A DNA stretch of 64,000 nt from a virus. A model generated the notes under the pieces. That model saw only the letters and a program-made list of their open reading frames with translations. It ran no database searches and was not told the origin of the DNA. This document shows positions 15,937 to 59,127 of the stretch, piece by piece (the first letter of the stretch is position 1; each line of letters begins with the position of its first letter). Where the stretch lies: the IMG/VR virus record IMGVR_UViG_3300028844_006119, positions 64,001 to 128,000 of that record. One strand, 5' to 3'. The position numbers and the translations under genes are program-made.

Positions 15937-16727
15937 TGTCCTTGTTCAAGGACGAGCAGGCTCATCCATTGATCCTCCTCAGGAAGTACCTGGGGATGTT
16001 CGGCATTGACGCCCTGGAGTGGGAGCCGCCCGTGATCAAGAGCTCGGTAGAGGATGAGACGGGGACTTCAATCGCCCGGATCAACCTGCTGAAGCTCATG
16101 GCCGCCATCGCCGTGGCCAATCACGATTCGTTCTGGAAGGACTGGCAGACGTTCCACTTCCTTACCGCTGCCTTGAACAACAACATCCCATCCGCCGCAG
16201 TCCTGTCGGATCAGACCGTGGGACAGATGATGACCGCGGTAGACATCGCGAACACCATACGTAAAGACTTGGGGAAGGCCACGTCAGTGCCTTCCTTTGG
16301 GGAGAAAGTCGCTCGGTACATCGCAGCGCAGGCCCTCGAGTCTGGAATTTGGTACCTGCCGTCCCCTCTAGGCTTCGCAAACAAGTACTGTGCCGGGCTC
16401 ATGCAGCGGTGCGGGAGATGCAGTAATGAGGAGGAGCGTCAGGATGACGGGCTCTGTAGTTATTGTACGGAGAGGTACAGCATGGACTCCCTGCAGAAGA
16501 TGGAGCCAGATCCCGACCTGGCAGGGCAATGGGACGCATCTAAGGTGAAGCCTTTTACCCTGCACCCATACGAGGGAGTAAGTCAGCGCCTGACCGAAGC
16601 TCTCACCCATAAGGACGTGGTCCTGGGGGAGACTCAGGATGACATCTGCGCCGCTAAACTGCTGACCGGACTGGAGTACATGAGCTATAGAAGGGCTCAA
16701 CTCAGGTCTCAAGGGGCGACTCAGTGA
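15936..16727 (+). CDS. Hypothetical protein with a CxxC...CxxC insert
   Basis: ORF coupled to its neighbours; CGRC...CSYC. Confidence 0.7.
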   Translation: MSLFKDEQAHPLILLRKYLGMFGIDALEWEPPVIKSSVEDETGTSIARINLLKLMAAIAVANHDSFWKDWQTFHFLTAALNNNIPSAAVLSDQTVGQMMTAVDIANTIRKDLGKATSVPSFGEKVARYIAAQALESGIWYLPSPLGFANKYCAGLMQRCGRCSNEEERQDDGLCSYCTERYSMDSLQKMEPDPDLAGQWDASKVKPFTLHPYEGVSQRLTEALTHKDVVLGETQDDICAAKLLTGLEYMSYRRAQLRSQGATQ

Positions 16728-17689
16728 TTTCCAGCGGCTCCCTCTTTTTCTTCAGCGACGAAATACAAAAGTGTGCAGGCATGCCTGCGCCTCAGCAAGC
16801 GCAGCAACCTGAGAAGAAACAGAGCTTTCTCTCCAGGAACAAGATGACTTTGGGAGCCGGCGCTCTTGCCGCAGGGATGATCCTAAAGAACCCCCAGGCA
16901 GCCTCCAAGTACCTGGGCCAAGTGAAGCAGATGGTCACTAACCCTAAGGCAGCCCTTCAGCGTGGCTGGAGATCTGGCTCATCCAACATCACCGGCAAGG
17001 TCCCCGGGGCCTCCGAGTCGGCGTCCAAGAGAGTCAGACTGTACAAGGACGTCTTAAGCTCGGCCGAGCAAGGCAAGCTTCAGTCCGTCAAATCCCTCGA
17101 CACTATTGGCGCGGGGGGAACTTCTGCGAGAGCTTCGGGCTGGGGAAGCGCGGGTAGGTCGTTCAGTAGAGCAGGACAAGAGCTAAAGATGTCCCCCGAT
17201 CTCACTAAGAGAGTGGGAGACATGCAAGCCAAGCTCAAGGCCGGAGAAGAAGTCTCAGAGCAAGCCTTGAAGGGCCTTTATGCTGAGATTCAGGGTGCTG
17301 GAAAGGGCCTTAAGATGAGGAAGGGCCTGTCGTACTATGCCCCTGGAGAGCGTACGATGATGACAGGTCTGGGCACAGGTCTGGGGGCAACGGCGGGCCT
17401 TGAGACCCACGATGCGGAAACAGGACGCAAGAGGGGCGTGGCGGAGCGAGTTGCTCGCGGGACTGTCGGTGCTGCGACTGGCACCGCGATGTCCTCCCTA
17501 TTCATGGGACGAGGCGCAAGGCTCAGCAGCAAGAACTTATTCACAGGAAATAGAGGCTCTCTGCTCAGCCAAAAGGGACTTCTGCCAGTCGCGGCAACGA
17601 CTCCCCTACTGGTGGGTACTGAGGCCGCTGGGGAGGTCGCGGGGAAGGGCGGAGAGCTGGCCGACAGAGCCTTTGGACAGAAATCATGA
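16724..17689 (+). CDS. Leader-bearing (FFFSDEIQKCA) basic, Gly-rich putative internal virion protein
   Basis: Shared leader motif, followed by Lys/Arg-rich sequence with Gly-rich hydrophobic segments. Confidence 0.65.
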   Translation: MISSGSLFFFSDEIQKCAGMPAPQQAQQPEKKQSFLSRNKMTLGAGALAAGMILKNPQAASKYLGQVKQMVTNPKAALQRGWRSGSSNITGKVPGASESASKRVRLYKDVLSSAEQGKLQSVKSLDTIGAGGTSARASGWGSAGRSFSRAGQELKMSPDLTKRVGDMQAKLKAGEEVSEQALKGLYAEIQGAGKGLKMRKGLSYYAPGERTMMTGLGTGLGATAGLETHDAETGRKRGVAERVARGTVGAATGTAMSSLFMGRGARLSSKNLFTGNRGSLLSQKGLLPVAATTPLLVGTEAAGEVAGKGGELADRAFGQKS

Positions 17690-26600: not shown

Positions 26601-26944
26601 ACAAAGAGCTGAAGAAGTTGGGACTCCCCACCATCCAGCACAAGCCTCTGCTGAAGCCTATGGACAAAGTCCCGCTTTCCGGTAAAGAAGACTGGATGGC
26701 GCGACTAAACTTCCAGAGGCTTAAGGACACCCTTATCGAGGGCGGGGCACAGAACTGGAAGTCAGATATCCAGGGTCACCCCATCCCAGGCCTGGCGCAT
26801 GGTGCGGCGTTTGGACTGCAAGCCCCAAAGACCGCAGCCATAAGCTCCCCTTTCCCCAAGCCCCCCAAACCTGTTAAACTTCCGGCACCTGTGCCTGCCG
26901 CCCCGCAGGGCATCTTCGGGTCCTTCTTTGGAGCAAAGTCATGA
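20606..26944 (+). CDS. DNA-directed RNA polymerase, fused beta/beta-prime single chain
   Basis: Beta motifs: TPE, DNGNRAMM, GYNFED, GDKLSGRHGNKG, PSRMNVGQ, YMLKLDH, GGQRIG. Beta-prime motifs: KRQDLSGRTV, RDPALH, NADFDGD (24806-24826), HGARKG bridge helix, RSPLHC..ICATCYG, GEPVTQMQMRTFHTGG. Confidence 0.97.
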   Translation: MANLAPGDAYRLLEERTKEAIKSHFPVEGRENRLELVDISTDEDASSASGKHHSYNHTSQTDAKLHDRTWGPNIVGTFRLVNMETGKVVDQGKRTLGQLPKITSRYSYIVEGNERQVDSVFRLNPGAYHVEADNGDLLAKWNVAAGSKVGSFKISIERKHPKKLGAMYLIVKSGTQSTRKIPAYGILSALGVSDPAMRKAWGESVFEVNRRISKPNDLLNFHEAVEKRRAGKDKYETPTLSEARKFAKEVFEGAEVNPDTMLATLGKKFTNISGDALLASSAKVVGISKGTAEPDDRQSLSNKRLFGMEDFIHEEISKGSSRFEMQKKIRNNLDRKGKISDILPAASVGYGRLITRKFKAAQLPTQTNPLQFVSNHTKTTILGQAFGGIKGDNVNLDRDKLINPSHLGLLDPLQTPENTSTGVSLHIPIGANKKGQQLYTKVLNVKTGKFENKNAAEMEKAVVAYPDQVKITRTKTGATVRPLHPDVVVYDSDRSTAKRPWKDVQYVLPNAKTLFSVSANMIPFVQNDNGNRAMMAAKHQEQAVSLKDREAPLVQAEFAGGVSFDQMIGKLNSTTASVAGTVSRITKDSVYIKGAAGKAVSHPIYNHHPLNGTKHMMHSTPVVKVGDKVKVGQLIADSNFTKDGTLSLGTNLRVGYLPYKGYNFEDGTVISETAAKKLVSTHLHIEEAEMFANVVVNRKLWRNFAGANKATAEVMSKLDEDGVIKEGAKVVPDDVLITRLVKAEMTRENQDVKRSLKKAIRDYKDAAVVWKHEYGGTVVRVVKTAKKIQVHIRTEQTMEPGDKLSGRHGNKGIITKILPDDMMPKDKSGKPVHVLMSPAGVPSRMNVGQVLETAASKIARKTGKSYKIENFDASVDYSQKIKDELKKHNLSDTEELFDPETGESLGQIFTGEQYMLKLDHQAEKKVSARSGGSGYAYRPTGEAISGSGIGKGGQRIGGLDTYALLAHGAKRNLMEMQTYKSDSEQARDVWIRVMQGQRPPPPKVPTSMEHFKKYLRATGVYAEETGGVYSLSPMTDAQTLGQSKGALVAADKTLVAKGMLTKEEKGGLFDRGKTGGMEGKFWSHIDMKTRMPNPMFETAIQSLLGLKKAEFEKLVSENGAVGKKSGFQIIEERLRAIKVPSELKKAEEELKTAKKADLNKKYKKVRYLRALKELKTSPVDAYTNQHLPVLPPILRPVKIGYDGTQMIDAANQYYAMIGQMTKQVEQGKKEGLPKADIFKREAQLYDLVRALRLNGMTQEGRELPSLMDKMTGSKPKHSFFQQGVLSKRQDLSGRTVVTPEPALKMDQVGIPVDMAMETYKPFVIRELWRRMGIAKSPGEARRMIKKNHPSAKKALERVITQRPVIMKRDPALHMFSTMAFKPVLVPGKSIKIHPLVCGGFNADFDGDTMAMYVPVTEEAAEEALEKMLPSKNLFSPTHGGLMLTPSQDAVLGIYQATKWGKKVPGILTEEQALQQLKNGKLKSDNVITVKGHKKPTTAGRLRINKTLPGSVKNDPELLYDPKFRMAKGAMKGFATRVAQSDPDEFSGMIDGWKELGFTLSYKNGSSFSLNDFHDGKTIRDNVLKKYKKEENVIRKSGISRKKKDQKIIALYQKAGEELKVIGQAHYKAKKDNRMWEWAESGARSNWGQFGQLVMGPMLVQNPSKEFVPVPLTTSFGEGLPISQYWAALHGARKGTLDRAAGTRDPGALTKELINTVIAYSVTDKDCGTSKGTLMSVMAKDIEGRYLAREVPLKSGDKLTRGTLVSSALLTRMKNSGPQKVLVRSPLHCQQATGICATCYGLNERGTLYKKGTNVGIIAGHALGEPVTQMQMRTFHTGGAGTDGLTDYFQQAKDLFKVPEKLRGAATLAEVTGRVDKIETDALGGKKVTIGGKLHVVPHSTPLLPKIRVGADVKKTDALSVGRKNPHDILRISNNIHAVRNHLTTELDSLYVETTGNERRRNIETVIRAMTDVAQVTESSEHENLLNGQMMSLSRIENRNKELKKLGLPTIQHKPLLKPMDKVPLSGKEDWMARLNFQRLKDTLIEGGAQNWKSDIQGHPIPGLAHGAAFGLQAPKTAAISSPFPKPPKPVKLPAPVPAAPQGIFGSFFGAKS

Positions 26945-27363
26945 ACAAGATCGCCGCATACGAAATCGCACTCGAGAGAATCGAACTTGAGAAGCGGGCT
27001 GACTCCCTGGTGGAGGCCTACGGCACCAGTGAGGGCTACATGCCGGGTGCCTACCTTCAGGCGTTTGATCAGATCGAGAAGGAAGCCGGAATCCAGGCTA
27101 TCGCAAATATCGGGAGCCGCCTCTCAACAGCGGCGCGAGGCACCATTAAAGGGATGATGGGGAGCGGCGGGGCAGTAGTCCGAAAGGGCGGGAAGATGCA
27201 GCTTAGCAGGGGAGCCGGACTTGGGGACACGGCTAAGTACTACGGAGCTCGAGGCGTGCAGCGCGCGGGAAGATTCGCCATGCAGAATCCCGGCGCGACT
27301 GCAGCTGTTGGCGGGGTCGGAGGTGTCGGAGCTGCCGGCCTCGGGTACAAGGCTCTGAAGTAG
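26941..27363 (+). CDS. Leader-bearing (MNKIAAYE) protein with cationic glycine-zipper cargo
   Basis: Acidic N-terminal part ending in EKEA, then a basic part ending GGVGGVGAAGLGYK. Confidence 0.7.
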   Translation: MNKIAAYEIALERIELEKRADSLVEAYGTSEGYMPGAYLQAFDQIEKEAGIQAIANIGSRLSTAARGTIKGMMGSGGAVVRKGGKMQLSRGAGLGDTAKYYGARGVQRAGRFAMQNPGATAAVGGVGGVGAAGLGYKALK

Positions 27364-30146: not shown

Positions 30147-30961
30147 TTCCCTTCTACCCCAAGTTTGGAAGCCAGGAGGATGCTCCAGGGTATGGCCCTG
30201 CTGCGTCCGAGGATAAGTGCGAGAACTGCGCGCATTATCGTAACTTGGGGAACCAAGGGCACTGCGAGAAGTTCTCGTTTATGTGCCAGCCTGAGTACGC
30301 CTGTGACGACTTCCGGCCTTCGGGAGTAATCAAGGAGTCCAGCGTGGTTGCGGAGGCTGCGGCCCTCCCCCGGAAGAAGGTCGAGGCGGTACAGGACACT
30401 GCGCGTGCCCTAAAAGAGAGAAACATCTCTCGAGCCCTGAACTCTGCCCAAAAAGACCTGATGCCGGGGAGATACGACAAGGCCATTGAGAACCTAAAGC
30501 ATCTATACCCCAAAGAGGCTGCTTCTCCTTTCATGCAGGGACTCGATCCTCTTGCAGGGGAGGTCGCCCGGGGAGCTATCCGGGATCGGCTGAATCCCGA
30601 CGTCTCTTCGGAGGAAATGACCCGCAGACGGAGACTCGCGACGCTGGGCGGAGTAGTCGGAGGCGGAGTCCTGGTCCCTGGCGCAGTCTCCGCTGTCCTA
30701 GGGGCCGGTGTTGGAGCTATGGGGAATAGAGGGTTGGGGAGAGTTACGGGAGCCGCGCGCCAGGCAGGGCGGGCTCTGCGAGGAACCTTTACCCGGGCAG
30801 GAAGTCCTGCTCTTATTGCCGGGGCAGGGATCGGAGCAATGGGGGCTCGCTCCCAATACGATTTAGGGGCGGGGCTTGCCGAGCTTGCCGCCGAGAAGCA
30901 CGCCTCTACCGACCACAGCTTGCGGTCTTTTCTTAGGAAGAATCATGAACAAGAACGCTAA
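30143..30961 (+). CDS. Cys-rich N-terminal domain plus glycine-zipper module
   Basis: CENCAHY...C...C...CDDF; IKESS, PKEAAS, EKHAS. Confidence 0.65.
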   Translation: MIPFYPKFGSQEDAPGYGPAASEDKCENCAHYRNLGNQGHCEKFSFMCQPEYACDDFRPSGVIKESSVVAEAAALPRKKVEAVQDTARALKERNISRALNSAQKDLMPGRYDKAIENLKHLYPKEAASPFMQGLDPLAGEVARGAIRDRLNPDVSSEEMTRRRRLATLGGVVGGGVLVPGAVSAVLGAGVGAMGNRGLGRVTGAARQAGRALRGTFTRAGSPALIAGAGIGAMGARSQYDLGAGLAELAAEKHASTDHSLRSFLRKNHEQER

Positions 30962-32933
30962 GGTCTTTGGGGCCACCCACGACTCCGACAGAGCGAACAA
31001 TGCGGCCATCCCCTACTCTGGTAGGCGGCGGGAATATGTTCTCTACCTCAATGCGAAGTCTAAGGAATCCCCCACCAAGCTGGTTACGGCGCTCCTAACT
31101 GGGGCAGGTCTCGGAGGACTGGCGGGAGGACTTGCCGGCCTTGGTGGGGGCGCGAAAGGTGCCCTAGTTGGTATCCTTGCTGGGGCCCTTGGTGGCTCCC
31201 TCTTCGGCGCCCTGGCTAAGGCCATCGATGATGGGAACATTCAAGAGGCTAAGCGCATCCTCCGTAAGGGCCACATCGACCAGGGGCTTGGGGAAGCCAT
31301 CATGCGAAACCAGCGAGCCAAGGAACAGGTGGCCCGGAGCAGACACTCCGAGACCCAACGCCGTCTCTCTGGAATCGAGAGAGGTATGAGTCGAGCCAGC
31401 AGCTACCCACACCGTAGTCGTAGGGTCACTGTGAAGGTCGGATCTCTTTGTTCCAAGATCGCAGGTACCTTGAACGAGTCCGACTTCGAGCGCTTCAATG
31501 AGGTGTTTTCCGACGCCAATACTCGACGAATGATTGAGAAGAACGCCTCCGTCATGGAGTGCCTCACCCTCCTGACTGACTCGGAGATTCACAGCACCGA
31601 CAAGATGGCTTCGGCGGCGGCCTCGGCATTCACGATGGGCTACGACGTGGTCCAGGTGAGACCTTCCGGCTACGGCTACACAGTCAAGGTGTCCGCTGCT
31701 CCGCAGGGCGTGGCCCCGCAAGAAACCCAGATGACTCAGCAGCAGGCTCAGCAGGCTCTTCCTCCTGAGATGCTTCAGGCTGCAGACCAGCAGGGCGCTG
31801 GCACGGTCACCAACGTGCAGGCAGACCCCGATCCGCTCGCGGAGAAGATGGCGCCGGCTACCGGGTTCGGCCTCTACAAGGTCACCGATGCTACTTCAGG
31901 CAAGCAGGTCGTTGGCTATGTCATTCCCGGACTGTTTGATCCGGTCTCGGGACAGCCCTCGCAGGTGAGCCTGTTCACCAACGGCTCCGCATACTGCGTG
32001 CAGCCGGTCATCAGCGGCTCCCTGTTGGGCGTGAACTTCAATCTTCCCATCCCGGAGAGCCCGGAAGTTCGCGGTTTGGGCGTGTTCGTCAAGAACAACG
32101 AGAAGGCCATCATCGCGACCATGCCGTACAACATCATCACTAAGGTGTCGGTTGAAGGTAAGGGCTACTTCGCCGCGCAGGACATGCAGGGCAACGACAT
32201 CCGCATCATCCCTTCTGAGGGCATTGCAAAGCCGGTTGCGACCTCTGCCACCGAGATTGTGATTCCCGCAGACTACAAGTTCATGCCTCTCGAGAACCCC
32301 ATCCAGCTTGCTGGCGGGGAAGAGCTGATGAAGTCCGCTCAGGCCAACGCGTTCCATACGATGATGGAGCTCCGGGCCTGGAGTGGAGGATGTCGCCTCG
32401 ATGGTCCCGTCTTCGAGAAGGTGGGATCGGGTGAGCACGACTGGGCCGACGGTGTCTTCTGGATGGCCGCTGCCGGTGTCCCCCAGAACGTAGGCTCTGC
32501 ACTTCTGGAGAAGGCAGCTTCCACAGGAGAGCCTCTCCGTCTGTTTGGTCTTGCGCCGCTTTCTACTCGAGAGGAGTACGTGGTCGAGGCAGAGAAGGAA
32601 GCCATGGCGGAAATGGCAGACATCGAGATTCCCCAGAGAGTCAACCTCCTTAAGGAGATCGCAGCGGTGACCTTCTCCAAGGAAGCATCGGCACTTGTGG
32701 ACACTACGTCTGTGGATGCCGTGCTTGCCCTCAACTTCCTCAACCCCGAGAATGTTGAGACCTTTGTAGAGCACCTGCCGCAGCTTGAGCACGCTTCCGA
32801 GAAGCTTGCCAATATCGTTCTGGCGTCTCAGCTGGGGCTTCAGTCCATCTCTAAGACCGCAGCCGTCCGTGCGATGTTTGCACTTGAAGATGTCATCTCA
32901 GGACTCAAGAGCCTCAAGACGTACTCGGTGTAA
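30945..32933 (+). CDS. Large virion/core protein with N-terminal glycine zipper and many K-x-A sites
   Basis: GAGLGGLAGGLAGLGG; SKIAG, EKNAS, DKMAS, MKSAQ, EKAAS, EKEAM, SKEAS, SKTAA. Confidence 0.7.
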   Translation: MNKNAKVFGATHDSDRANNAAIPYSGRRREYVLYLNAKSKESPTKLVTALLTGAGLGGLAGGLAGLGGGAKGALVGILAGALGGSLFGALAKAIDDGNIQEAKRILRKGHIDQGLGEAIMRNQRAKEQVARSRHSETQRRLSGIERGMSRASSYPHRSRRVTVKVGSLCSKIAGTLNESDFERFNEVFSDANTRRMIEKNASVMECLTLLTDSEIHSTDKMASAAASAFTMGYDVVQVRPSGYGYTVKVSAAPQGVAPQETQMTQQQAQQALPPEMLQAADQQGAGTVTNVQADPDPLAEKMAPATGFGLYKVTDATSGKQVVGYVIPGLFDPVSGQPSQVSLFTNGSAYCVQPVISGSLLGVNFNLPIPESPEVRGLGVFVKNNEKAIIATMPYNIITKVSVEGKGYFAAQDMQGNDIRIIPSEGIAKPVATSATEIVIPADYKFMPLENPIQLAGGEELMKSAQANAFHTMMELRAWSGGCRLDGPVFEKVGSGEHDWADGVFWMAAAGVPQNVGSALLEKAASTGEPLRLFGLAPLSTREEYVVEAEKEAMAEMADIEIPQRVNLLKEIAAVTFSKEASALVDTTSVDAVLALNFLNPENVETFVEHLPQLEHASEKLANIVLASQLGLQSISKTAAVRAMFALEDVISGLKSLKTYSV

Positions 32934-40394: not shown

Positions 40395-40677
40395 CCTGCT
40401 AACTCCCCAAGTCATGACGGCGTTCTCCGACGAGATCGAGAAGCTCGCCTTCTCCGTAATTGGCCGGGCGGCTAAGGGAGCTGCGGACATGGGGTTTAAG
40501 GGCGTCGGTTCCGTGGCTAAGGCAGCGGTAAACAACCCCAAAGCGGCTCTCATGGGAACCGCAGCACTCGGCGCAACCGGCCTCGGGGGAGCCCACGTAC
40601 TTAAGAAGTCCAGGCAGGGCTTTGAGGCCCAGAGTATGGGCTCTCTTCCTGGCCGGCATGGTACTTTAACCACATAG
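40384..40677 (+). CDS. Leader-bearing (AFSDEIEKLA) cationic glycine-zipper peptide
   Basis: Leader followed by FSVIGRAAKG...TAALGATGLGGAHVLKK. Confidence 0.7.
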   Translation: MTDSLLTPQVMTAFSDEIEKLAFSVIGRAAKGAADMGFKGVGSVAKAAVNNPKAALMGTAALGATGLGGAHVLKKSRQGFEAQSMGSLPGRHGTLTT

Positions 40678-40687: not shown

Positions 40688-41209
40688 ATGGAAATTCCCG
40701 CAGAAGCATACGAGCTTTACGCTCGAGGCGAGATCACTGACCGGGAGATGCACGAGCTTGAGAAGTTCGCAGAGGCTCTCGAGAAGACCGCCTTCGATTA
40801 TGGGAAGGCGGGGCTGATGATGGGCGGAATGGCGCTGGCTGCTCCGGCGCTGGCGTATGCCGCAAACCAGGTCCCTAAGACCTTGCAGGGTATGGCGAAC
40901 TCCATGCGCTTCGAGTCCGGCCTAAACAAGGCTCTCGAGATCAACCCGCAGCTCGGTAGTGCTAAGGACCCGAACTTGCGCATGGCGTACAAGACGCTCC
41001 AGACGACCAACCCGGACTACGCCAAGGATCCTCTGATCGCCGGTACCATTCTGGACATGGTCATGTCGAACCGCATGGACCCTGATGATCCCGGCAGCGC
41101 ACCTCGTTTCGACCCGACACTTCTCAATGAGATTCAGAAGAGCGCTCCCAGATCGCCTGACATGACCCAAACCATGGGAAGCGCGGCAATGACCGCCGCC
41201 AAGGGATAG
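40688..41209 (+). CDS. Putative internal virion protein with acidic propeptide ending in EKTA
   Basis: ELEKFAEALEKTA followed by hydrophobic GLMMGGMALAAPALAYA. Confidence 0.65.
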   Translation: MEIPAEAYELYARGEITDREMHELEKFAEALEKTAFDYGKAGLMMGGMALAAPALAYAANQVPKTLQGMANSMRFESGLNKALEINPQLGSAKDPNLRMAYKTLQTTNPDYAKDPLIAGTILDMVMSNRMDPDDPGSAPRFDPTLLNEIQKSAPRSPDMTQTMGSAAMTAAKG

Positions 41210-41218: not shown

Positions 41219-43192
41219 TTGGACAAGTACGCGCTATACCCCGGAAAGGCTGCTGACGGCCGGCCCAGAGTTCACCTGGTTGAGCCGGGTACTGGGTATG
41301 GTATGGCCAGTACTGACGGAGTCACCAAGACCGCGTCGGGAGAGCACCTTCCGGAAGTCATGGAGCTTATTGAGTCGATCGAGGCGCAGCCCGGAAGGCT
41401 GTACTTGGTCAACTCAGCTCTGGGTGCTGGGGAGAACGTTGGGTTCAATCTTCGAGGTGACTGGTTCACTGAGAAGGGCCTGAATCACACTCCTCCCGGA
41501 TTCGAGCAGATCCCGGTGTGGGATATCGAAGCGCGGAGAAAAGCCGCAAACATCACAGAGGCTGTGCCTCGGTGGGGGTCTTTGGCGTGGGGCTACCCTA
41601 CGTTCTACAACGCGCATAGATTCCGGCACCACGTCAACAAGGACCCAAACAAAGCCTACGGATTCATTCTGGGGGCTTTTTGGGATGACCGTATGAAGCG
41701 GGTCATCCTGGTGTCTGAGCTGATTAAGACCATGTGCGCCAAGATGGGGGCTCTTGATCTGTACAACCGGATCCAGGGTGGGGACTTTCCAGACTCCAGC
41801 ATGGGCAGCAAGGTCCCGTACGACCGATGCGCTATTTGTAACCACCATGCCCGCACACCAATGCAGTATTGTGAGCATGTCCGTAAGGGAGCTTCTCCTC
41901 CCTATGGAATGAAGTCCATGCTCCCGGACGGGCGTATCTGCGGTGTTTACAACGACTACCCGAGATTCTTCGACGATTCATTTGTGTTTGTCGGGGCCGA
42001 GCGATCTGCGAAGGTGATGTCGGATGTCACGAATCAGGTCTCGGGGAGAAACGCGTACTCCCAGAAGATCTACCCGTTCTCGCGCCCCATCCAGAAGATT
42101 GCTTCTGCAGCCGGGGTAGCGGATGTAACTCCTATCTCTGATGCTCCGTCTCCGCAGACGCAGAAGCCGAACATCCCGGACTTTGTTTTAGAGGAAAAAC
42201 TTACTCGGGCTGTCCAGCTGATTCCCGTAAGCACCTCTGCTGAGCGAGAGACGCTTAGATTCTTCATGCAAGAGCGCCTAGCGGAGGAAAGAGTCCGTGC
42301 GGGGACAATGTCCTCCACTGAGATGCAGATGTGGAAGGACCTCTCGCGGAACGTATTACTGAGGCAGTACGGGGTCTCCCCAGAGCAGATGGTCCACCTA
42401 AAGGTACTGTTCAACACCCGAGCAAATCAGGTACTTGGGATTACTAAGGTTGCGGAGATGCCCAAGTGGGCAGAGATTCTGAAGAGAATCCCCGCCCCCT
42501 CTCCGGAGCACATGAGCATCGTGCGTAGAGAGGAGAAGTGCCTCCCCGAGATTCCTAGAGAAATCCTGGACGAAATCGCAGATGCTCCTGGGCCAAATCT
42601 CCGTGCTGCAGCACGGATGGGCATCGTGGCCCGTCCCAATGAGTTCCAGTACATCATGCTGCGGCAAAGAGACCCGGACTTAGCGAGTAGACTCCACACG
42701 AATAGAGTGGTATTTCGCCCTACTTCCCTTCGTAGGGAGACATCAGCGTTCAATACGGGCTATGTCCCTCGCGACACTATGCACTCCATCATCCATAAGT
42801 TGGCACCTCTTATAGCCTCACGCTCCTTTGCGCCTTCGGCTATTAGAGCGCGGATCATTAAGATCACGCCCATGCCTAAGATCGCAGAGTTCTCAGAGAC
42901 CGAGAACTTGGATGAGGTCTCAGAGCTATACAATCAGTATCGCCTGGGGCTTATGCTATCTCCTACAGACCTCACGGCAGTGACCGTGCCCTCTGTTTTC
43001 TCCGATAGAATCGATGACGATGTGAAAATTGCCGGTGATTCTGTTAGTCTTTCTGCCCTAATGACGAGCCTTGCCTATTGGCCCGGTTTACAGTTAGGAT
43101 TAAACTCGGCTGAGGGGTCCTCCTCCGAAGACGCCACCCACTCTCAACCCCATATTGGAGAAATCCATCATGTCACTCCTTACGGAGCTTGA
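41219..43192 (+). CDS. Prohead (capsid maturation) protease
   Basis: NLRGDWF, FRHH, DSSMG followed by CAIC..YCEH, FFDDSFVFVGAE; lies upstream of the scaffold and capsid genes; carries its own KTAS/KIAS sites. Confidence 0.7.
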   Translation: MDKYALYPGKAADGRPRVHLVEPGTGYGMASTDGVTKTASGEHLPEVMELIESIEAQPGRLYLVNSALGAGENVGFNLRGDWFTEKGLNHTPPGFEQIPVWDIEARRKAANITEAVPRWGSLAWGYPTFYNAHRFRHHVNKDPNKAYGFILGAFWDDRMKRVILVSELIKTMCAKMGALDLYNRIQGGDFPDSSMGSKVPYDRCAICNHHARTPMQYCEHVRKGASPPYGMKSMLPDGRICGVYNDYPRFFDDSFVFVGAERSAKVMSDVTNQVSGRNAYSQKIYPFSRPIQKIASAAGVADVTPISDAPSPQTQKPNIPDFVLEEKLTRAVQLIPVSTSAERETLRFFMQERLAEERVRAGTMSSTEMQMWKDLSRNVLLRQYGVSPEQMVHLKVLFNTRANQVLGITKVAEMPKWAEILKRIPAPSPEHMSIVRREEKCLPEIPREILDEIADAPGPNLRAAARMGIVARPNEFQYIMLRQRDPDLASRLHTNRVVFRPTSLRRETSAFNTGYVPRDTMHSIIHKLAPLIASRSFAPSAIRARIIKITPMPKIAEFSETENLDEVSELYNQYRLGLMLSPTDLTAVTVPSVFSDRIDDDVKIAGDSVSLSALMTSLAYWPGLQLGLNSAEGSSSEDATHSQPHIGEIHHVTPYGA

Positions 43193-44123
43193 ATCACGGG
43201 GCGTCACAGCTGAGGATCTTGAGAAAGCGGCATCTGTCCGTTTATTTGAGAAGGCTGCTGCCGCCGAAGACGTGGATCTCGGCTCACTTGATGAAAATCA
43301 GGTAGAAGACCTCTACGTCACATTCCTTTCCAACCAGTCCAATGATGACTACACAAAAGAGGCTTCCGCCATGAACGACGAAATCGTTGACCTTTTCGAA
43401 AAGACCGCTGCAGCCGAGGGCATTGACCTCGACGACATGGCGGACCACGAGCTTGCTGAGCTCTACAACCACTACGTTGAGAACGTTCTGCCCGAGCAGG
43501 TCGAAGAGTACGAGAAGGGTGCTTCGTACGAGGTCGACGAGGCCACCGAGAAGCTCGCTGAGGCCGAGATTCTCGGTCGCCACATGGCGCGTGCCTACAT
43601 GGATGAGTTCGACAAGGAGGCTGCGAGCGCAGCAGCGGCCGGTGCCAGACTGGACGCTGCTGCGGCCGAGGCCGGACGATGGGGCCAGTCGGGCAAGGTC
43701 GAGGCGCAGAACGCCGCGAACCGTGCCAAGGAATCGATTGGACGAGGCTACGAGTCTGCCAAGGCGAAGGGCAAGGCTGGCTATGAAGCTGGTGTCCGTG
43801 GTGCTAAGGCCACTGGTGCCGCAGTTGCTTCCGGTGCTCGGTCCTACGGCAATGCTATGACTGGTAAGCAGTTGCGAGAGGCTGTCTCCACCATGCGTAA
43901 GCAGAAGGGTGGATATCGATCTTCCGCAATGGGCCGCGGTAAGGCCCTTCGTGGCGGTGCCAAGACGCTAGCCGCATGGGGCGCAACCGGTGCAGCTGGC
44001 TACGGCGCCAAGAAGGGCTACGACAGGATGACCAAGAAGTCCTCGATTGACGAGATCATTGAGGACCGCGCCAACGAGCTTCTCGGAGAGTTCCTCTTCG
44101 AGAGCGGTGTCGAGCTGGACTGA
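43170..44123 (+). CDS. Acidic scaffold-like protein with internal repeat and an embedded cationic cassette
   Basis: LFEKAAAAEDVDL / LFEKTAAAEGIDL repeat; basic Gly/Ala segment between KEA and KKS. Confidence 0.7.
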   Translation: MSLLTELESRGVTAEDLEKAASVRLFEKAAAAEDVDLGSLDENQVEDLYVTFLSNQSNDDYTKEASAMNDEIVDLFEKTAAAEGIDLDDMADHELAELYNHYVENVLPEQVEEYEKGASYEVDEATEKLAEAEILGRHMARAYMDEFDKEAASAAAAGARLDAAAAEAGRWGQSGKVEAQNAANRAKESIGRGYESAKAKGKAGYEAGVRGAKATGAAVASGARSYGNAMTGKQLREAVSTMRKQKGGYRSSAMGRGKALRGGAKTLAAWGATGAAGYGAKKGYDRMTKKSSIDEIIEDRANELLGEFLFESGVELD

Positions 44124-44125: not shown

Positions 44126-44413
44126 GTGGAAATGCCTGCCAACACAGACATCATGAGATTCTTCTCAGACGAGATCTGTAAGTTGGCAGGCATGCCCGCA
44201 CTCAAGGTTCCGGGCATGGGCAGTAAGGGACAACTATCTTCATTGATGGCCCGACCTGCCCATGCCCAGGCCGGTAACTTCGCAAAAGCACAAAAAGCAC
44301 TGAAAACACCCACCACAGGAAGCGCCCCGAAAGGGATTAATCATGCTTCGTTAAAGGCGGTGGGCTCCACGGGATCTGTATCTTTACCGCCACCTCCCGT
44401 GAAAACCGTCTAA
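44126..44413 (+). CDS. Leader-bearing (FFSDEICKLA) basic peptide
   Basis: Shared leader; Lys/Pro-rich cargo without acidic residues. Confidence 0.65.
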   Translation: MEMPANTDIMRFFSDEICKLAGMPALKVPGMGSKGQLSSLMARPAHAQAGNFAKAQKALKTPTTGSAPKGINHASLKAVGSTGSVSLPPPPVKTV

Positions 44414-44437: not shown

Positions 44438-45178
44438 ATGAGCAACTACCGAAGCATGATTGATGACGCACTCCAGAGTGCAAGAGCCCGTATCGATGGC
44501 GGCAGCGCAGATCTGATGAAGACCGCTTCTGCCCCCGAGAACAGCATGGTCAAGGAGGCGTCCGAACTCGCAGACGCCCTTGAGTATGTTGCCCACGCCT
44601 CTACGAACACTGGCTCCGCCGCTGACGCTGTTCGTGGCGAAATGGTTCGTTCCTTCTTTAAGAGCGCGGCAGGCGCTCCTGCCCAGAGCAGCACATCTGT
44701 TCAGGGCACCCAGGCACACGCCCCCACTGGAAAGAAGATCCAGGCAAAGGGCCAGTCTGTCGGAGGCTCGGCTCCTCAGTCGGAGACCACTCCCGCCCCC
44801 GCAGATGGCCAGAAGCCGCTGCTCGAGTCCTTCAAGCAGGCAGAGGGTCAGTCTCTCTACGACATCCTGATGGCCAGTAAGACCGCAGGCAAGGGTGGCC
44901 CCTCCGAGAGCACGGCTACTGAGTCTGCTCAGGGCATTCCTTCTGGTAACGAGAACTCCAACCGTCAGGCGATTCTCGAGAGCAACGAGGCTCCGGTCAA
45001 CGCGACCCGCCGTCAGGCTAAGGCTCCCGTCCGTAAGCGCCTCGCGGAGGCGTTTGCCCACACGAACAGCACCACTGGCGACTCCACGCTGAATGCAATG
45101 TTCCCTCAGGCCGCAGGTAAGGGATCCCACAAGATCGCCTCCGTGAAAGATCGGCTGAGCGCAATGGCTGGTGAGTAA
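44438..45178 (+). CDS. Scaffold/core-like low-complexity protein
   Basis: MKTAS, VKEAS, FKSAA, SKTAG, HKIAS. Confidence 0.7.
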   Translation: MSNYRSMIDDALQSARARIDGGSADLMKTASAPENSMVKEASELADALEYVAHASTNTGSAADAVRGEMVRSFFKSAAGAPAQSSTSVQGTQAHAPTGKKIQAKGQSVGGSAPQSETTPAPADGQKPLLESFKQAEGQSLYDILMASKTAGKGGPSESTATESAQGIPSGNENSNRQAILESNEAPVNATRRQAKAPVRKRLAEAFAHTNSTTGDSTLNAMFPQAAGKGSHKIASVKDRLSAMAGE

Positions 45179-45485
45179 TATGTCCTCTATTAGAGACAGG
45201 CTTGAGAAGATCGCTGCTGCCAAGGACGATAAGGGTGACCTCGCCCTTTATGTCTCTAAGAAGCTCTCGGAGAAAAGAGCATCCGTTGCGGAGTACTCTG
45301 TGCTCTTCGATAAGGTTGCCTCCGGTGACCTAGGAGAGCACACCCGTCAGGCCCTACTCGGCATCTGCGACACGATCCCAGAACCCACTACTCTTTCGGA
45401 AAAGACAGCATCTGTGTATGATGTTATGGACTTTTCTGAGAATGACGCAAGAAGAGCTAGACTAGATCAGCTCCTAAAGCGTTAA
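45171..45485 (+). CDS. Small core-like protein
   Basis: EKIAA, EKRAS, DKVAS, EKTAS in 104 aa. Confidence 0.7.
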   Translation: MSNMSSIRDRLEKIAAAKDDKGDLALYVSKKLSEKRASVAEYSVLFDKVASGDLGEHTRQALLGICDTIPEPTTLSEKTASVYDVMDFSENDARRARLDQLLKR

Positions 45486-46531: not shown

Positions 46532-47668
46532 ATGGATTATTCCGCTGAAATGGTGAATTCGGGCTTCATTGAGCGCCTCGAGACTGAGGGTTCCACGAAG
46601 ACCGCCGCCGCCTCTCTCAACTACATCAAGGATCGCCTGCGCGAGTCCAGCTTTGCCGACATGATCGTTCCGAACGAGCGTGTTGTGCGTGGCGACTTGC
46701 AGCGCAGCACCCAGCACGACACCCTCGTGAAGATCGTCGACATCGAGCCGGGTTCCCGCGCGATGGCCGTCAACTTCCGTGGTCAGCCTACCGCTGAGTA
46801 CGTGTCTGGTAAGCGCTACGCAATCGGCTTCTTCACCATCTCGAGCCTCAAGTTCGAAATCGTGGAGCAGGAGCTGATGGCATACGAGATGCCCGTCACC
46901 CGCATCATCGAGGAGAACAGCCTCAAGGACATGGTCGAGGTCAAGGATCGCGAGTTCCTGAACCACGTCGAGTCCTGCATCGATGCAATGCAGAGCGAGG
47001 GTGGTATCACCACCTTCAACACCTCGACTTGGACAGCTGGTTCCCAGTTCTCGAAGATCAAGGGCTCTCTGGCTCTGCAGCAGACCACCGACAACTTCAA
47101 CGTCCAGGCAATCCAGCGGACTGACATTGTGGAGCTCAAGAAGCTTCTCAAGCGTCAGGTGCTTGATAGCTCCGGTAACGTGGTTCGTCAGGGTCGTCTT
47201 CGTCCCGCGCTGATGCTCATGACTGAGTCCGACGCTGACGACTTCGATCAGTGGACTCACGAGGACTACGGTGATCGTCTCCAGAGCGAAACCGCTCTCG
47301 ACGGCTACACCTACAACAAGGTCCTCGGTCTGCGCATCGTCCGTACCATCAAGAACGACATCCTGCGTGAGGGCAACGTTTACGTGTTCACCGCACCGGA
47401 GTTCTTCGGCCGGAACTACACGCTGAACGATGTCAAGTTCTACATCGATAAGATTGCGAACCGCATCTTCTGGCAGGCATGGATGGACGTGGGCATGGGC
47501 TTCGGCAACATCGCCTCGGTCGTCAAGCTTGAGCTCTACTCCGGTAGTGTCAGTGGCACGCCGGATTCCGGCTTTGCTGCAGCGATGCCGACTGACGAAG
47601 AGAACCTGGGTGGCCAGAACAACAAGGCCGCTGATGGTCTGACCTACCCGAGCCTCAACATCTTCTAG
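46532..47668 (+). CDS. Major capsid protein (HK97-fold expected)
   Basis: 378 aa; follows the protease/scaffold genes; AGGAG RBS; strongly biased codons; followed by a terminator. Confidence 0.75.
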   Translation: MDYSAEMVNSGFIERLETEGSTKTAAASLNYIKDRLRESSFADMIVPNERVVRGDLQRSTQHDTLVKIVDIEPGSRAMAVNFRGQPTAEYVSGKRYAIGFFTISSLKFEIVEQELMAYEMPVTRIIEENSLKDMVEVKDREFLNHVESCIDAMQSEGGITTFNTSTWTAGSQFSKIKGSLALQQTTDNFNVQAIQRTDIVELKKLLKRQVLDSSGNVVRQGRLRPALMLMTESDADDFDQWTHEDYGDRLQSETALDGYTYNKVLGLRIVRTIKNDILREGNVYVFTAPEFFGRNYTLNDVKFYIDKIANRIFWQAWMDVGMGFGNIASVVKLELYSGSVSGTPDSGFAAAMPTDEENLGGQNNKAADGLTYPSLNIF

Positions 47669-58594: not shown

Positions 58595-58882
58595 GTGGAT
58601 CTTGAAGTCCTACATTTCTTCTCTGATGAGGTGGAGAAGACTGCGTCTGGCCCGTGGAATCAGAACGCTGGCGCGTTCGCAAGTGTCGCCGGGGAGCTGG
58701 ACGATGGCGGCGGGTTCACTGTCTCTGATCTTCGGAAGTACCTGCGCTACCCACAGTCGCGATCCTCAGTTCAGCGACCTACTAAGCCTACGGTGATGTG
58801 GACCTCCTCGGATGCAGAGGACTGGCTCATCTTCAGCCCAAACAAGCACCGGGCGTTTGTTCGCTGGGCTAGAGGCAAATGA
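58595..58882 (+). CDS. Leader-bearing (MDLEVLHFFSDEVEKTA) small protein
   Basis: GTG start; leader duplicated in the next gene. Confidence 0.7.
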   Translation: MDLEVLHFFSDEVEKTASGPWNQNAGAFASVAGELDDGGGFTVSDLRKYLRYPQSRSSVQRPTKPTVMWTSSDAEDWLIFSPNKHRAFVRWARGK

Positions 58883-59127
58883 TGGATCTCGAAGTCTTAC
58901 ATTTCTTTTCTGATGAGGTGGAGAAGCTCGCAGCGAAGAGTCGGCACAACTACTACATGCGGAATCGTAATCAGATTCTGCAGAAGCAGCGTCAGTACCG
59001 AGCCAAGAACAAGGCCGGTATTGCACGCAGGCAGAAGATGTACCGGCGGAAGGTAAAGATGGGCGCGCATAGACAGCGTAAGCGCATCTCTACGGGCCAC
59101 TCCTACACCTACGGCGGGTACAGATAG
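58879..59127 (+). CDS. Leader-bearing (MDLEVLHFFSDEVEKLA) protamine-like peptide
   Basis: Cargo is very rich in Arg/Lys/Tyr and has no acidic residue. Confidence 0.7.
   Translation: MMDLEVLHFFSDEVEKLAAKSRHNYYMRNRNQILQKQRQYRAKNKAGIARRQKMYRRKVKMGAHRQRKRISTGHSYTYGGYR

What the first reader, a model, noticed from the sequence alone, without database searches (positions are those of the whole stretch)
16724..59127. Portable N-terminal leader (F-F-S-D-E-[IV]-x-K-x-A) fused to unrelated cargos: candidate capsid-targeting and cargo-loading system
Seen: five scattered genes start with the same short acidic leader and are unrelated afterwards. They are 16724 (LFFFSDEIQKCA), 40384 (MTAFSDEIEKLA), 44126 (MRFFSDEICKLA), 58595 (LHFFSDEVEKTA) and 58879 (LHFFSDEVEKLA). 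Looser versions occur at 40688 (KFAEALEKTA) and internally at 26941 (AFDQIEKEA) and 43170 (AYMDEFDKEA). Most cargos are cationic or glycine-zipper peptides. Known: T4 internal proteins use a 10-aa N-terminal capsid-targeting sequence that the prohead protease removes. Inference: this leader is an analogous but unrelated address tag ending in a cleavage site. It would let the phage load a changeable set of peptides into the head for injection or DNA packing, and could be a programmable protein-packaging tag.
Basis: partly seen in the sequence, partly recalled or inferred. Interest (0 to 1): 0.92.

Follow-up and report, generated by a model that had tools for sequence, protein, structure and literature searches.

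The report
Shared leader helix on phage head proteins
An uncultured 140-200 kb phage lineage puts the same ~17-residue acidic helix, ending in the probable cutting motif (Lys-x-Ala) of its own head-maturation protease, on several unrelated small basic proteins, most likely to load them into the capsid as phage T4 does with its internal proteins; no cutting or packaging has been measured.

Summary
The motif F-F-S-D-E-[IV]-x-K-x-A occurs five times in the window, against about 0.001 expected by chance. All five lie on the + strand, 8-16 residues from the start of ORFs whose downstream parts are unrelated. Codons differ between copies, so selection acts on the peptide. A sixth copy lies outside the window, inside its protein.

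Related IMG/VR phages keep the helix on at least six cargo families. Metagenomic proteins carry 2-4 tandem leader-cargo units. All six cargos in this genome are basic (pI 10-11.8) and the leaders are acidic.

The last three residues of the leader belong to a wider code. Hydrophobic-x-K-x-A-[S/A/G] is strongly enriched only in head-assembly proteins (z about 8). It sits at the capsid-protein N-terminus, at domain borders and at a gene fusion/split point. It is conserved in the cultured distant relatives Salmonella phage Arash and Vibrio phage D69, which lack the F-F-x-D-E part.

The adjacent 657-aa protein has a T4 gp21/herpesvirus-assemblin protease fold (Z 9.3).

The best reading is a T4-CTS-like targeting propeptide removed by an Ala|Ser-cutting head protease. 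It is inferred, not shown. It is a new variant of a known kind. This scan has reported analogous leader systems on other phage DNA.

The parts
16724..17689 (+). Leader protein 1 (321 aa). The motif is at 16748-16777. The cargo is 303 aa, pI 10.4. The gene lies directly upstream of the probable portal gene.
   Evidence: Orthologue with a weaker leader in G002/G004.
40384..40677 (+). Leader protein 2 (97 aa). The motif is at 40420-40449. The cargo is a basic Gly/Ala-rich peptide. In relatives an equivalent tail is fused to the upstream protein through ...F-G-E-K-T-A|S.
44126..44413 (+). Leader protein 3 (95 aa), directly after the scaffold-like gene. The motif is at 44159-44188. An orthologue is present, with the leader retained in diverged form, in every relative examined.
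58595..58882 (+). Leader protein 4 (95 aa). The motif is at 58616-58645. Its leader matches the next gene's at 41 of 45 nt.
   Evidence: P0126
58879..59127 (+). Leader protein 5 (82 aa). The motif is at 58903-58932. The cargo is very basic (33% K+R, pI 11.8). Orthologues with the leader occur in G001, G005 and metagenomes.
41219..43192 (+). Probable head-maturation protease (657 aa). Residues 42-290 have an assemblin/T4 gp21 fold, bracketed by K-T-A|S (37-40) and K-I-A|S (293-296). The C-terminal part is a helical domain.
43155..44123 (+). Acidic scaffold-like protein with 7 hydrophobic-x-K-x-A sites. It has a conserved internal leader-like site (A-Y-x-D-E-x-x-K-x-A), followed by a variable basic Gly/Ala cassette and a conserved C-terminal helix.
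39486..40394 (+). Head-region protein (302 aa) with 9 K-x-A sites, most followed by Ser. The sites are conserved in relatives and in Arash gp220 and its D69 homologue.
40688..41209 (+). Protein (173 aa) with the looser leader (E-K-F-A-E-A-L-E-K-T-A at residues 24-35) before a Gly/Ala-rich stretch. It is conserved in relatives.
45171..45485 (+). Small protein (104 aa) with four K-x-A-[S/A] sites and an N-terminal second leader type (I-R-D-R-L-E-K-I-A|A).
46532..47668 (+). Major capsid protein. It has a conserved N-terminal T-K-T-A|A-A-S site at residues 21-28. The site is at the same aligned place in the Arash and D69 capsid proteins.
26941..27363 (+). Protein (140 aa) that starts M-N-K-I-A|A and has an internal A-F-D-Q-I-E-K-E-A|G before a basic Gly-rich tail.
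14713..15936 (+). Head-block protein rich in K-x-A sites (6 sites, z 4.9).
30876..32933 (+). Protein rich in K-x-A sites (8 sites, z 4.8).

Best explanation
The window is the virion-gene block of an uncultured large phage. Its head-maturation protease (41219-43192) has an assemblin/T4 gp21 fold. It probably cuts after the motif hydrophobic-x-Lys-x-Ala, preferring Ser, Ala or Gly next, a specificity that resembles the Ala|Ser sites of herpesvirus assemblin.

This motif marks the N-terminus of the capsid protein and the borders of the protease domain. It also marks many positions in scaffold or core proteins that would be degraded during maturation.

The 'leader' is an extended version of such a site. 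It is a ~17-residue acidic amphipathic helix (two hydrophobics, x, F-F-x-D-E-hydrophobic-x-K-x-A) placed in front of small, unrelated, strongly basic proteins. The proposed mechanism has three steps:
1. The helix docks the precursor to the assembling prohead core. The receptor is unknown; candidates are the scaffold-like protein, the protease C-terminal domain and the inner capsid surface.
2. The protease removes the helix at or near K-x-A.
3. The basic cargo stays with the packaged DNA, as a DNA-condensing or injected protein.

Shown here: the motif, its modularity and conservation, the enrichment of K-x-A sites, and the protease fold. Inferred: cleavage, its exact position, docking, and packaging.
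For: Motif and modularity
- The motif is real and far beyond chance: 5 observed against 0.0009 expected. Conservation is at the peptide level.
- The six cargos are unrelated to each other. All are basic, and all leaders are acidic.
- The leader is conserved in every related contig examined, on at least six cargo families.
- A profile search of 1.84 billion proteins gave 15 hits at E<=1e-3. About 12 look genuine. Most carry the motif within the first ~40 residues, before basic or Gly-rich tails. P0129, P0130, P0132 and P0137 carry 2-4 leader copies, in P0132 and P0137 each followed by a different segment.

The K-x-A code
- Hydrophobic-x-K-x-A is enriched only in the head block: 55 observed against 19.5 expected (z 8.2). 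The tail block has z 0.4 and the replication block z -0.3.
- In the head block 33 of 119 K-x-A are followed by Ser, against a background of 7.6% (p 5e-11). The rest of the genome shows no excess (p 0.62).
- The same few gene families are enriched in G001 and G002.
- Sites sit at meaningful places: the capsid-protein N-terminus, both ends of the folded protease domain next to disordered or hypervariable linkers, and the point where the 39486 protein is fused to or split from a Gly-rich cargo.
- The code is conserved in the cultured distant relatives Arash and D69 at matching positions, although their core proteins are only ~30% identical.

Protease identity
- PHROG 'head maturation protease' matches 22 of 25 family members (best E 8e-7).
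- The N-domain model has pLDDT 76 and pTM 0.73.
- The best structural match is T4 gp21, 5jbl_A (Z 9.3, rmsd 2.9 A over 133 residues). Next come the VZV, HCMV and KSHV proteases. Foldseek's top ~30 hits are nearly all herpesvirus proteases or T4 gp21.

Precedent
- T4 loads diverse internal proteins through a conserved capsid-targeting sequence (PMC3012670).
- SPN3US head proteins lose N-terminal propeptides of 20-254 residues at A-x-E sites with Ser preferred at P1' (PMC10052503).
Against: - There is no experimental evidence for cleavage, packaging or binding in this lineage.
- In several leaders the residue after K-x-A is F, I, V, R or D rather than S/A/G. The cut, if any, may lie elsewhere or be less efficient.
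- The leader is not always N-terminal. It is internal in the gyrB-adjacent family and C-terminal in G001.
- The cultured relatives Arash and D69 have the K-x-A code but no F-F-x-D-E leader. The extended helix is therefore not needed for this head type in general.
- Two leader genes lie outside the head module.
- The protease link rests on fold and one PHROG only. Pfam S77 and S78 models and hhalign against T4 gp21 find nothing by sequence, and the catalytic residues were not mapped.
- Within-protein shuffling does not control for local composition in Lys/Ala-rich helical proteins, so part of the enrichment could be structural.
Confidence: 0.5

Rival explanations
1. The leader is a propeptide without an address function. 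It is only an N-terminal protease substrate or exosite and an acidic 'safety catch' that neutralises very basic DNA-binding or membrane-active cargos until maturation. The cargos reach the head by binding DNA or by other means, or do not reach it at all.
For: - Acidic leaders are paired with basic cargos in all six cases.
- Arash and D69 appear to manage with minimal K-x-A N-termini, for example M-F-K-S-A|S on the post-scaffold basic protein of D69, and have no long helix.
- The K-x-A code alone explains the last three residues.
Against: - Many internal K-x-A-S sites lack the F-F-x-D-E part, so that part is not needed for recognition by the protease.
- F7, D9, E10 and K13 are near-invariant across unrelated cargos. 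This argues for one common binding partner rather than cargo-specific neutralisation.
- The helix works in tandem, internal and C-terminal positions.
Confidence: 0.2
2. The helix is an uncleaved structural element. It would be a docking or oligomerisation helix that stays on the mature proteins, for example binding the portal, DNA or a tail/baseplate part. K-x-A-S would then be a helix-capping or repeat feature of Lys/Ala-rich scaffold-like proteins rather than a cut site.
For: - Several leaders have non-small residues after K-x-A.
- The enrichment test does not control for local composition.
- The Arash paper reports 100% peptide coverage for gp221, gp223 and gp224 in particle preparations.
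Against: - K-x-A-[S/A/G] is conserved at the capsid-protein N-terminus and in disordered linkers flanking the protease fold, not only inside helical repeats.
- It marks a gene fusion/split junction.
- Ser after K-x-A is enriched fourfold only in the head block.
- The Arash preparation detected 116 proteins and was searched with tryptic rules, so coverage cannot exclude processing.
Confidence: 0.15
3. The leader is an export or bacteriocin-type leader. The acidic amphipathic helix would direct small cationic, Gly-rich peptides to a transporter or to the membrane, for lysis, superinfection exclusion or killing of competitors. This would be like the double-glycine leaders of class II bacteriocins.
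For: There is a formal resemblance (from general knowledge). Double-glycine leaders are ~15-25-residue acidic amphipathic helices in front of cationic, GxxxG-rich peptides. Some cargos here are Gly/Ala-rich.
Against: - There is no G-G cut site.
- No C39 peptidase or transporter was found in the 142-kb record, while the control search gave matches in 7 of 14 reference genomes.
- The hydrophobic stretches are weak.
- The genes are embedded among protease, scaffold, capsid and portal genes. They share the K-x-A code with the capsid protein.
- A sigma factor carries a related leader.
Confidence: 0.05

Closest known systems
Phage T4 capsid-targeting sequence (CTS) of internal proteins IPI-III and Alt, removed by prohead protease gp21 (PMC3012670; Mullaney and Black 1996, as cited in PMC10052503)
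   Same: A short conserved N-terminal amphipathic peptide sits on otherwise unrelated, mostly basic proteins. It ends in the cutting motif of the phage's own head protease, and that protease has the same fold (gp21, Z 9.3). Some cargo genes are scattered outside the head module.
   Different: - There is no sequence similarity to the T4 CTS. The leader here is ~17 rather than 10 residues long and is acidic with an F-F-x-D-E core.
- The putative cut is after Lys-x-Ala, not after Leu/Ile-x-Glu.
- The phage is not T4-like (Arash-like lineage with a single-chain RNA polymerase).
- The tag also occurs internally, in tandem and at a C-terminus.
- Packaging and cleavage are unproven here.
Propeptides of phiKZ / 201phi2-1 / SPN3US head and ejection proteins, cut at (A/S/G)-x-E (PMC10052503)
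   Same: Many head proteins carry one protease motif, with several copies inside regions that are degraded. Ser is preferred at P1'. Short propeptides of 20-24 residues occur on some head proteins. The virion packages an RNA polymerase (by analogy with the Arash particle proteome, PMC10585845).
   Different: The motif differs (K-x-A against A-x-E). SPN3US propeptides are not a shared portable sequence. The phage lineage is different.
Herpesvirus assemblin maturational (M) and release (R) sites, Ala|Ser, next to the capsid-binding tail of the scaffold (general knowledge)
   Same: The protease fold is the same (VZV Z 7.7, HCMV Z 6.2, KSHV Z 5.4). The proposed cut lies between Ala and Ser. A short amphipathic docking helix lies directly beside the cut site and would be released by it.
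   Different: The herpesvirus helix is C-terminal on the scaffold and binds the major capsid protein. Here the helix is usually N-terminal on small cargos and its receptor is unknown. A Lys is required two residues before Ala.
Adenovirus core-protein precursors (pVII, pre-Mu) processed by the adenovirus protease (general knowledge)
   Same: Very basic DNA-associated internal proteins are made with N-terminal propeptides that a virion protease removes after assembly.
   Different: The protease family and virus type are unrelated. Adenovirus has no shared portable leader.
Double-glycine leaders of class II bacteriocins; encapsulin cargo-loading peptides (general knowledge)
   Same: These are portable short peptides that address diverse cargos. 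Bacteriocin leaders are acidic helices in front of cationic Gly-rich peptides. Encapsulin peptides dock cargo to the inside of an HK97-fold shell.
   Different: There is no G-G site and no C39 transporter here. Encapsulin peptides are not cleaved and differ in sequence.

Membership tests
T4-type capsid-targeting sequence system | The same short N-proximal peptide on several otherwise unrelated proteins of one phage | tested here: met
   There are five copies in the window and one outside it. The cargos share no similarity. The peptide is conserved in relatives on at least six cargo families.
T4-type capsid-targeting sequence system | The peptide ends in the cleavage motif used by the phage's own prohead protease on capsid and scaffold proteins | tested here: inconclusive
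   The leader ends in K-x-A. This motif is enriched in head proteins and present at the capsid-protein N-terminus. That it is a cleavage motif is inferred, and several leaders lack S/A/G at the next position.
T4-type capsid-targeting sequence system | Sequence similarity to the T4 CTS and an (L/I)-x-E cut site | tested here: not met
   The leader consensus shows no likeness to the T4 CTS and ends in K-x-A. It is an analogue, not a homologue.
T4-type capsid-targeting sequence system | Cargo found inside proheads or virions with the leader removed | not testable with these tools
   This needs virion mass spectrometry. The Arash particle proteome was searched with tryptic rules, and Arash lacks the leader.
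Assemblin / gp21-fold prohead serine proteases (MEROPS S21, S77, S78, S80) | Assemblin-like fold | tested here: met
   Model of residues 1-310: pLDDT 76, pTM 0.73. VIA-align gives T4 gp21 Z 9.3 (rmsd 2.9 A, 133 aligned), VZV 7.7, HCMV 6.2 and KSHV 5.4. Foldseek's top hits are nearly all the same two families, at weak E values of 0.017-0.3.
Assemblin / gp21-fold prohead serine proteases (MEROPS S21, S77, S78, S80) | Catalytic His and Ser in the conserved order and position | tested here: inconclusive
   H138 and S194 are invariant and 56 residues apart. No residue-level superposition was available, and hhalign against T4 gp21 gave no alignment.
Assemblin / gp21-fold prohead serine proteases (MEROPS S21, S77, S78, S80) | Match to the family sequence models | tested here: inconclusive
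   Pfam S77 and S78 give no match in the record, and Pfam and NCBIfam scans of the family find nothing. PHROG 18299 'head maturation protease' matches 22 of 25 members (best E 8e-7).
Class II bacteriocin double-glycine leader | G-G (or G-A/G-S) cut site and a C39-peptidase ABC transporter | tested here: not met
   The leaders end in K-x-A. There is no Peptidase_C39 match in the 142-kb record, while the control gave matches in 7 of 14 genomes. The record is only 77% complete.
Sec/Tat signal peptide | Basic n-region followed by a hydrophobic h-region | tested here: not met
   The leaders have a net charge of -1.3 to -4.4 and no hydrophobic core.

The most novel reading that the evidence does not exclude
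A widespread, entirely uncultured lineage of 140-200 kb phages uses a packaging code of its own. The tag is a position-independent 17-residue acidic docking helix, F-F-x-D-E-hydrophobic-x-K-x-A. It is flanked by cut sites of a gp21/assemblin-fold protease that has a herpesvirus-like Ala|Ser specificity plus a Lys requirement. The code would load a changeable set of basic proteins into the capsid for co-injection. A related R-x-R-L-x-K-I-A helix would do the same for the phage sigma factor that serves a virion-borne single-chain RNA polymerase. This would be a second, independently evolved and transplantable capsid-addressing system beside the T4 CTS.
Probability: 0.3. Interest if true: 0.75.

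Novelty: new variant of a known kind. Interest (0 to 1): 0.6.

Why it matters
If the reading is right, three things follow.
- It gives a second, sequence-unrelated example of the T4 strategy of addressing arbitrary proteins to the inside of a capsid, in a phage lineage that is common in metagenomes but has no cultured member with this leader.
- It predicts a new prohead-protease specificity (Lys-x-Ala|Ser/Ala/Gly). This links phage gp21-fold proteases functionally, not only structurally, to herpesvirus assemblin, which also cuts Ala|Ser.
- The code makes the maturation map of a whole head module readable from sequence: which proteins are trimmed, which are degraded, and which peptides remain. 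This can be tested at once in the cultured relatives Arash and D69.

A short, position-tolerant tag with defined invariant residues would also be a practical handle for loading foreign proteins into phage capsids. All of this is prediction. The immediate value is a precise, cheap set of experiments.

Tried and rejected
- Co-fold of the full 41219 protein with residues 1-50 of the 44126 protein, both with alignments: no answer, ipSAE 0.00 in two runs, controls not run. This is not evidence either way. Other candidate receptors (capsid protein, scaffold-like protein, portal) could not be tried because only one job was allowed.
- Full-length model of the 41219 protein: poor (pLDDT 65), with no meaningful Foldseek match. 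Folding the N-domain alone solved this.
- Sequence routes to name the protease all found nothing: PDB phmmer, Pfam and NCBIfam scans of 25 members, Pfam S77 and S78 against the genome, and hhalign against T4 gp21.
- PHROG and Pfam scans of the nine leader and leader-like proteins gave nothing useful.
- A word-based homologue search with the first 40 residues of the 58879 protein returned only its own orthologues. It was therefore uninformative about portability.
- A DNA- or RNA-level element as the cause of the repeat was rejected because of the synonymous-codon differences.
- Chance was rejected.
- Paralogy of whole genes was rejected, because the cargos show no similarity beyond one 11-residue patch.
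- The Arash supplementary file holds only gene and protein lists, no peptide data, so cleavage could not be read from it.
- Reading the upstream regions by eye found no shared promoter motif for the leader genes.
- The genomic context of the tandem-leader proteins P0129, P0132 and P0137 could not be seen, because they lie on contigs of 1-3 kb.
- Three of the 15 profile hits (repeats of Q-T-D-E-I-C-K-L-A-V-Q-Q-N-G type) are unrelated repeat proteins and were discarded.
Full report
SETTING. The window is bases 64001-128000 of a 142,186-bp IMG/VR virus record that is estimated 77% complete.
- The - strand of 1-14.7 kb carries replication genes: family-A DNA polymerase, primase, DnaB-like helicase, UDG-like protein, SF2 helicase and RecA-like protein.
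- From 14.7 to 60 kb the + strand carries virion genes:
  - a weak portal candidate at 17686;
  - a 2112-aa single-chain RNA polymerase with beta and beta' domains at 20606-26944;
  - a gp5/VgrG-type OB protein at 27365;
  - the large terminase at 35984;
  - a 657-aa protein at 41219;
  - an acidic scaffold-like protein at 43155;
  - the major capsid protein at 46532.
- Related contigs of up to 165 kb are present in IMG/VR. The 657-aa protein has more than 150 cluster representatives in metagenomes, on contigs of up to 199 kb.
- The nearest cultured relatives are distant: Salmonella phage Arash and Vibrio phages D69, D148 and D181. Their polymerase and 657-aa-protein homologues are about 30% identical to those here.

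THE OBSERVATION.
- All five ORFs carry F-F-S-D-E-[IV]-x-K-x-A (A-F-S-D-E in 40384), 8-16 residues after the likely start. A six-frame scan finds only these five, all on the + strand.
- The expectation for the whole record is 0.0009, and 100 codon-shuffled genomes gave none.
- Codons differ among the copies, so the peptide is what is conserved. The adjacent genes 58595 and 58879 share 41 of 45 leader nucleotides and nothing afterwards.
- A sixth copy lies outside the window on the - strand, downstream of a complete gyrB homologue and a terminator-like hairpin. Alignment with relatives shows that this family has a conserved ~55-residue N-terminal part, so here the helix is internal. In contig G001 the helix ends a 393-aa ORF.
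- The six cargos have no detectable similarity. All are basic (pI 10.0-11.8, net charge +4 to +23), whereas the leaders carry -1.3 to -4.4. The Gly/Ala-rich stretches are only weakly hydrophobic.

PORTABILITY.
- An iterated profile of the helix finds it in all related contigs, at about 1-6 copies per contig.
- The carriers are:
  - the protein after the scaffold gene (in every relative);
  - the very basic 58879 family;
  - the family before the portal gene;
  - the gyrB-adjacent family;
  - several small Gly-rich proteins.
- Invariant or nearly invariant positions are F7, D9, E10 and K13, with a hydrophobic residue at 11 and Ala or Ser at 15. This spacing fits one face of an amphipathic helix with i/i+4 salt bridges (inference).
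- A profile search of 1.84 billion representative proteins returned 15 hits at E<=1e-3. About 12 are genuine-looking. Most have the motif in the first ~40 residues, ahead of basic or Gly-rich sequence. P0129, P0130, P0132 and P0137 contain two to four leaders; in P0132 and P0137 each leader is followed by a different segment. Three hits are unrelated repeat proteins.
- The motif is therefore rare in the protein universe and is not a general feature of host proteins. One further leader gene, P0133, sits alone on one strand among small opposite-strand genes near a ribonucleotide reductase.

A WIDER CODE.
- The end of the leader, K-x-A, belongs to a much more frequent signal. In + strand proteins of 14.7-60 kb, hydrophobic-x-K-x-A occurs 55 times against 19.5 expected from within-protein shuffles (z 8.2). 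K-x-A-[S/A/G] occurs 59 times against 21.8 expected (z 7.9).
- The tail-fibre/baseplate block upstream and the replication block show no excess.
- Ser follows K-x-A in 33 of 119 cases in the head block, against a Ser background of 7.6% (p 5e-11). In the rest of the genome it follows in 12 of 143 cases (p 0.62).
- A few proteins account for the excess:

| Protein | Sites | Length |
|---|---|---|
| 39486 | 9 | 302 aa |
| 30876 | 8 | 685 aa |
| 41219 | 8 | 657 aa |
| 43155 (scaffold-like) | 7 | 322 aa |
| 14713 | 6 | 407 aa |
| 45171 | 4 | 104 aa |

. Their homologues are also the enriched genes in contigs G001 and G002.
- Conserved sites sit at telling places:
  - T-K-T-A|A-A-S at residues 21-28 of the capsid protein;
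  - K-T-A|S at 37-40 and K-I-A|S at 293-296 of the 41219 protein, which coincide with the ends of the confidently folded domain;
  - the junction ...F-G-E-K-T-A|S, where in five relatives the 39486 orthologue continues into a Gly-rich tail, whereas in this genome 39486 ends earlier and the next gene is the separate, leader-bearing 40384;
  - both ends of a variable, sometimes duplicated basic cassette inside the scaffold-like protein.
- The same code is present at matching positions in Arash (gp220, gp222, gp223, gp225 and the N-terminus of capsid protein gp226) and in D69. In D69 the post-scaffold basic protein begins M-F-K-S-A|S.
- Neither Arash nor D69 has the F-F-x-D-E helix. The K-x-A code is therefore old in this lineage, and the long helix is specific to this clade.

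THE PROTEASE.
- The 41219 protein weakly matches a PHROG annotated as head maturation protease. The match holds for 22 of 25 family members (best E 8e-7). Sequence searches against PDB, Pfam and NCBIfam were empty.
- The full-length model was poor. Residues 1-310 folded alone gave pLDDT 76 and pTM 0.73, with residues 42-288 well ordered.
- The exhaustive structural search puts the T4 capsid assembly protease gp21 first (Z 9.3, rmsd 2.9 A, 133 of 165 residues). The varicella-zoster, cytomegalovirus and KSHV proteases follow, ahead of unrelated folds at Z about 5. Foldseek independently lists almost only herpesvirus proteases and gp21 at the top, with weak E values.
- I therefore accept an assemblin/gp21-fold protease. 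The catalytic residues are not mapped. The invariant H138 and S194 are candidates by order and spacing, which is an inference.
- No other prohead protease and no C39 peptidase was detected in the record.
- Herpesvirus assemblin cuts between Ala and Ser (general knowledge). The predicted K-x-A|S rule is therefore plausible for this fold.

MECHANISM PROPOSED. Taken together, the data fit the logic known from T4 and from the phiKZ-like phages.
- In T4, a conserved capsid-targeting sequence brings diverse internal proteins into the scaffolding core (PMC3012670).
- In SPN3US, head proteins lose N-terminal propeptides at one motif, with Ser favoured at P1' and several motif copies in degraded regions (PMC10052503).
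- Here the helix would dock small basic proteins to the prohead interior and would be removed at or near K-x-A. The basic products would remain with the DNA.
- The fusion/split of 39486 and 40384 suggests a reason for the free-standing gene's own tag. In relatives the Gly-rich tail rides in as part of a larger, site-rich core protein. When encoded separately it carries the helix (inference).
- The receptor is unknown. The only co-fold allowed gave no answer.
- I put the full model at about 0.5. The component claims are: K-x-A-[S/A/G] is the protease motif, about 0.65-0.7; the leader is cleaved, about 0.55; the helix is the address, about 0.4-0.45.

RIVALS. Four alternatives were considered:
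- a pure propeptide or charge-neutralising role without targeting (0.2);
- an uncleaved structural docking helix, with K-x-A-S as a structural feature of Lys/Ala-rich helices (0.15);
- an export or bacteriocin-like leader (0.05);
- chance or decayed paralogy (under 0.03, rejected).

The main weaknesses of the preferred model are these:
- several leaders have non-small residues after K-x-A;
- the tag is sometimes not N-terminal;
- some tag genes lie outside the head module (as T4 ip genes also do);
- there are no proteomic data at all.

COMPARISON AND NOVELTY.
- Functionally this resembles the T4 CTS system, but it is not a member of it. There is no sequence similarity, the cut motif is different, and the phage lineage is different.
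- It also parallels the herpesvirus arrangement of a docking helix next to an Ala|Ser site.
- This scan has already reported comparable leader systems on other phage genomes, mostly T4-like, and one with an apparent Ala/Ser-cutting protease. None of them is related in sequence to this phage.
- I class the finding as a new variant of a known kind. It is of moderate to good interest, because it gives a concrete, testable protease code and tag for a widespread uncultured lineage and for two cultured relatives.

Noticed in passing
window 20606-26944 (+): A single 2112-aa ORF joins bacterial-type RNA polymerase beta (Rpb2_6, E 1e-65) and beta' (Rpb1_2/3/5) domains, inside the virion-gene block. It is about 30% identical to the split or fused homologues of Vibrio phage D69 and Salmonella phage Arash. 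In Arash particle preparations the beta subunit gave the most spectra, and beta' and a sigma factor were also detected (PMC10585845). A virion-borne single-chain polymerase is therefore plausible.
   Followed up: partly
outside the window: G000 genome 32958-33791 (+) = L066:18958-19791: A sigma factor (Sigma70_r3 match) begins with S-L-R-D-R-L-Q-K-I-A|A-K-D-P. This N-terminal helix is conserved in three relatives. It resembles the N-terminus of the 45171 protein and the starts of small Gly-rich proteins in L009 and L013, and forms a second leader type (R-x-R-L-x-K-I-A). It could address sigma to the capsid together with the polymerase.
   Followed up: partly
window 39486-40677 against L003-L008, L015-L016 and G001: Gene fusion/split. 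In five relatives the 39486 orthologue runs on through ...F-G-E-K-T-A|S into a Gly/Ala-rich tail. In this genome and in L009, L011 and L013 the protein ends earlier. In this genome, L009 and L013 a separate small leader-bearing gene follows it.
   Followed up: yes
window 43155-44123 and orthologues (L003, L005, L007, G001, G003, G005): The scaffold-like protein consists of acidic repeats, each holding F-E-K-x-A|A-A-E-G-[IV]-D-L. Between a D-E-x-x-K-x-A site and a K-K-S-S site it also carries a basic Gly-rich cassette that varies greatly in length. Both the repeat number and the cassette are duplicated in some relatives.
   Followed up: partly
window 46532-46610 (capsid protein N-terminus): The capsid protein's first 25 residues contain G-F-I-E-R-L-E, followed a few residues later by K-T-A|A. 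Arash and D69 have S/A-F-I-D-K-[IL]-D ... K-E-A|G at the same place. This resembles a stretched version of the leader core and may be its evolutionary source.
   Followed up: no
homologues of the 41219 protein: P0062, P0083, P0091, P0095, P0100, P0104, P0113, P0117, P0125: About 1000-aa versions of the protease carry intein/Hint and LAGLIDADG domains (PF14890, PF13403, PF14528). Inteins are known to favour conserved sites of essential proteins, so this fits a highly conserved essential enzyme.
   Followed up: no
window 58345-58587 (+) and 26941-27363 (+): Two small proteins both start M-N-K-I-A, a minimal K-x-A N-terminus like M-F-K-S-A|S in D69. The 58345 protein also has three tandem S-G-L-K-A units.
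   Followed up: no
G001 141860-142200 (L040): An ORF ends three residues after a truncated leader (H-F-F-G-D-E-L-L). The DNA after it translates like a tRNA gene region. It may be a leader-cargo gene disrupted by an insertion.
   Followed up: no
outside the window: G000 genome about 133355-133395 (-) = L065 about 5355-5395: A G+C-rich hairpin followed by a T run lies directly after gyrB and before the sixth leader gene. That gene is therefore probably transcribed separately from gyrB.
   Followed up: no
window 41219-43192, residues 204-220 of the product: A conserved C-x-x-C ... C-x-H cluster (C204, C207, C218, H220) lies inside the protease domain. It is a possible zinc site, which I do not recall from T4 gp21 or assemblins.
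   Followed up: no
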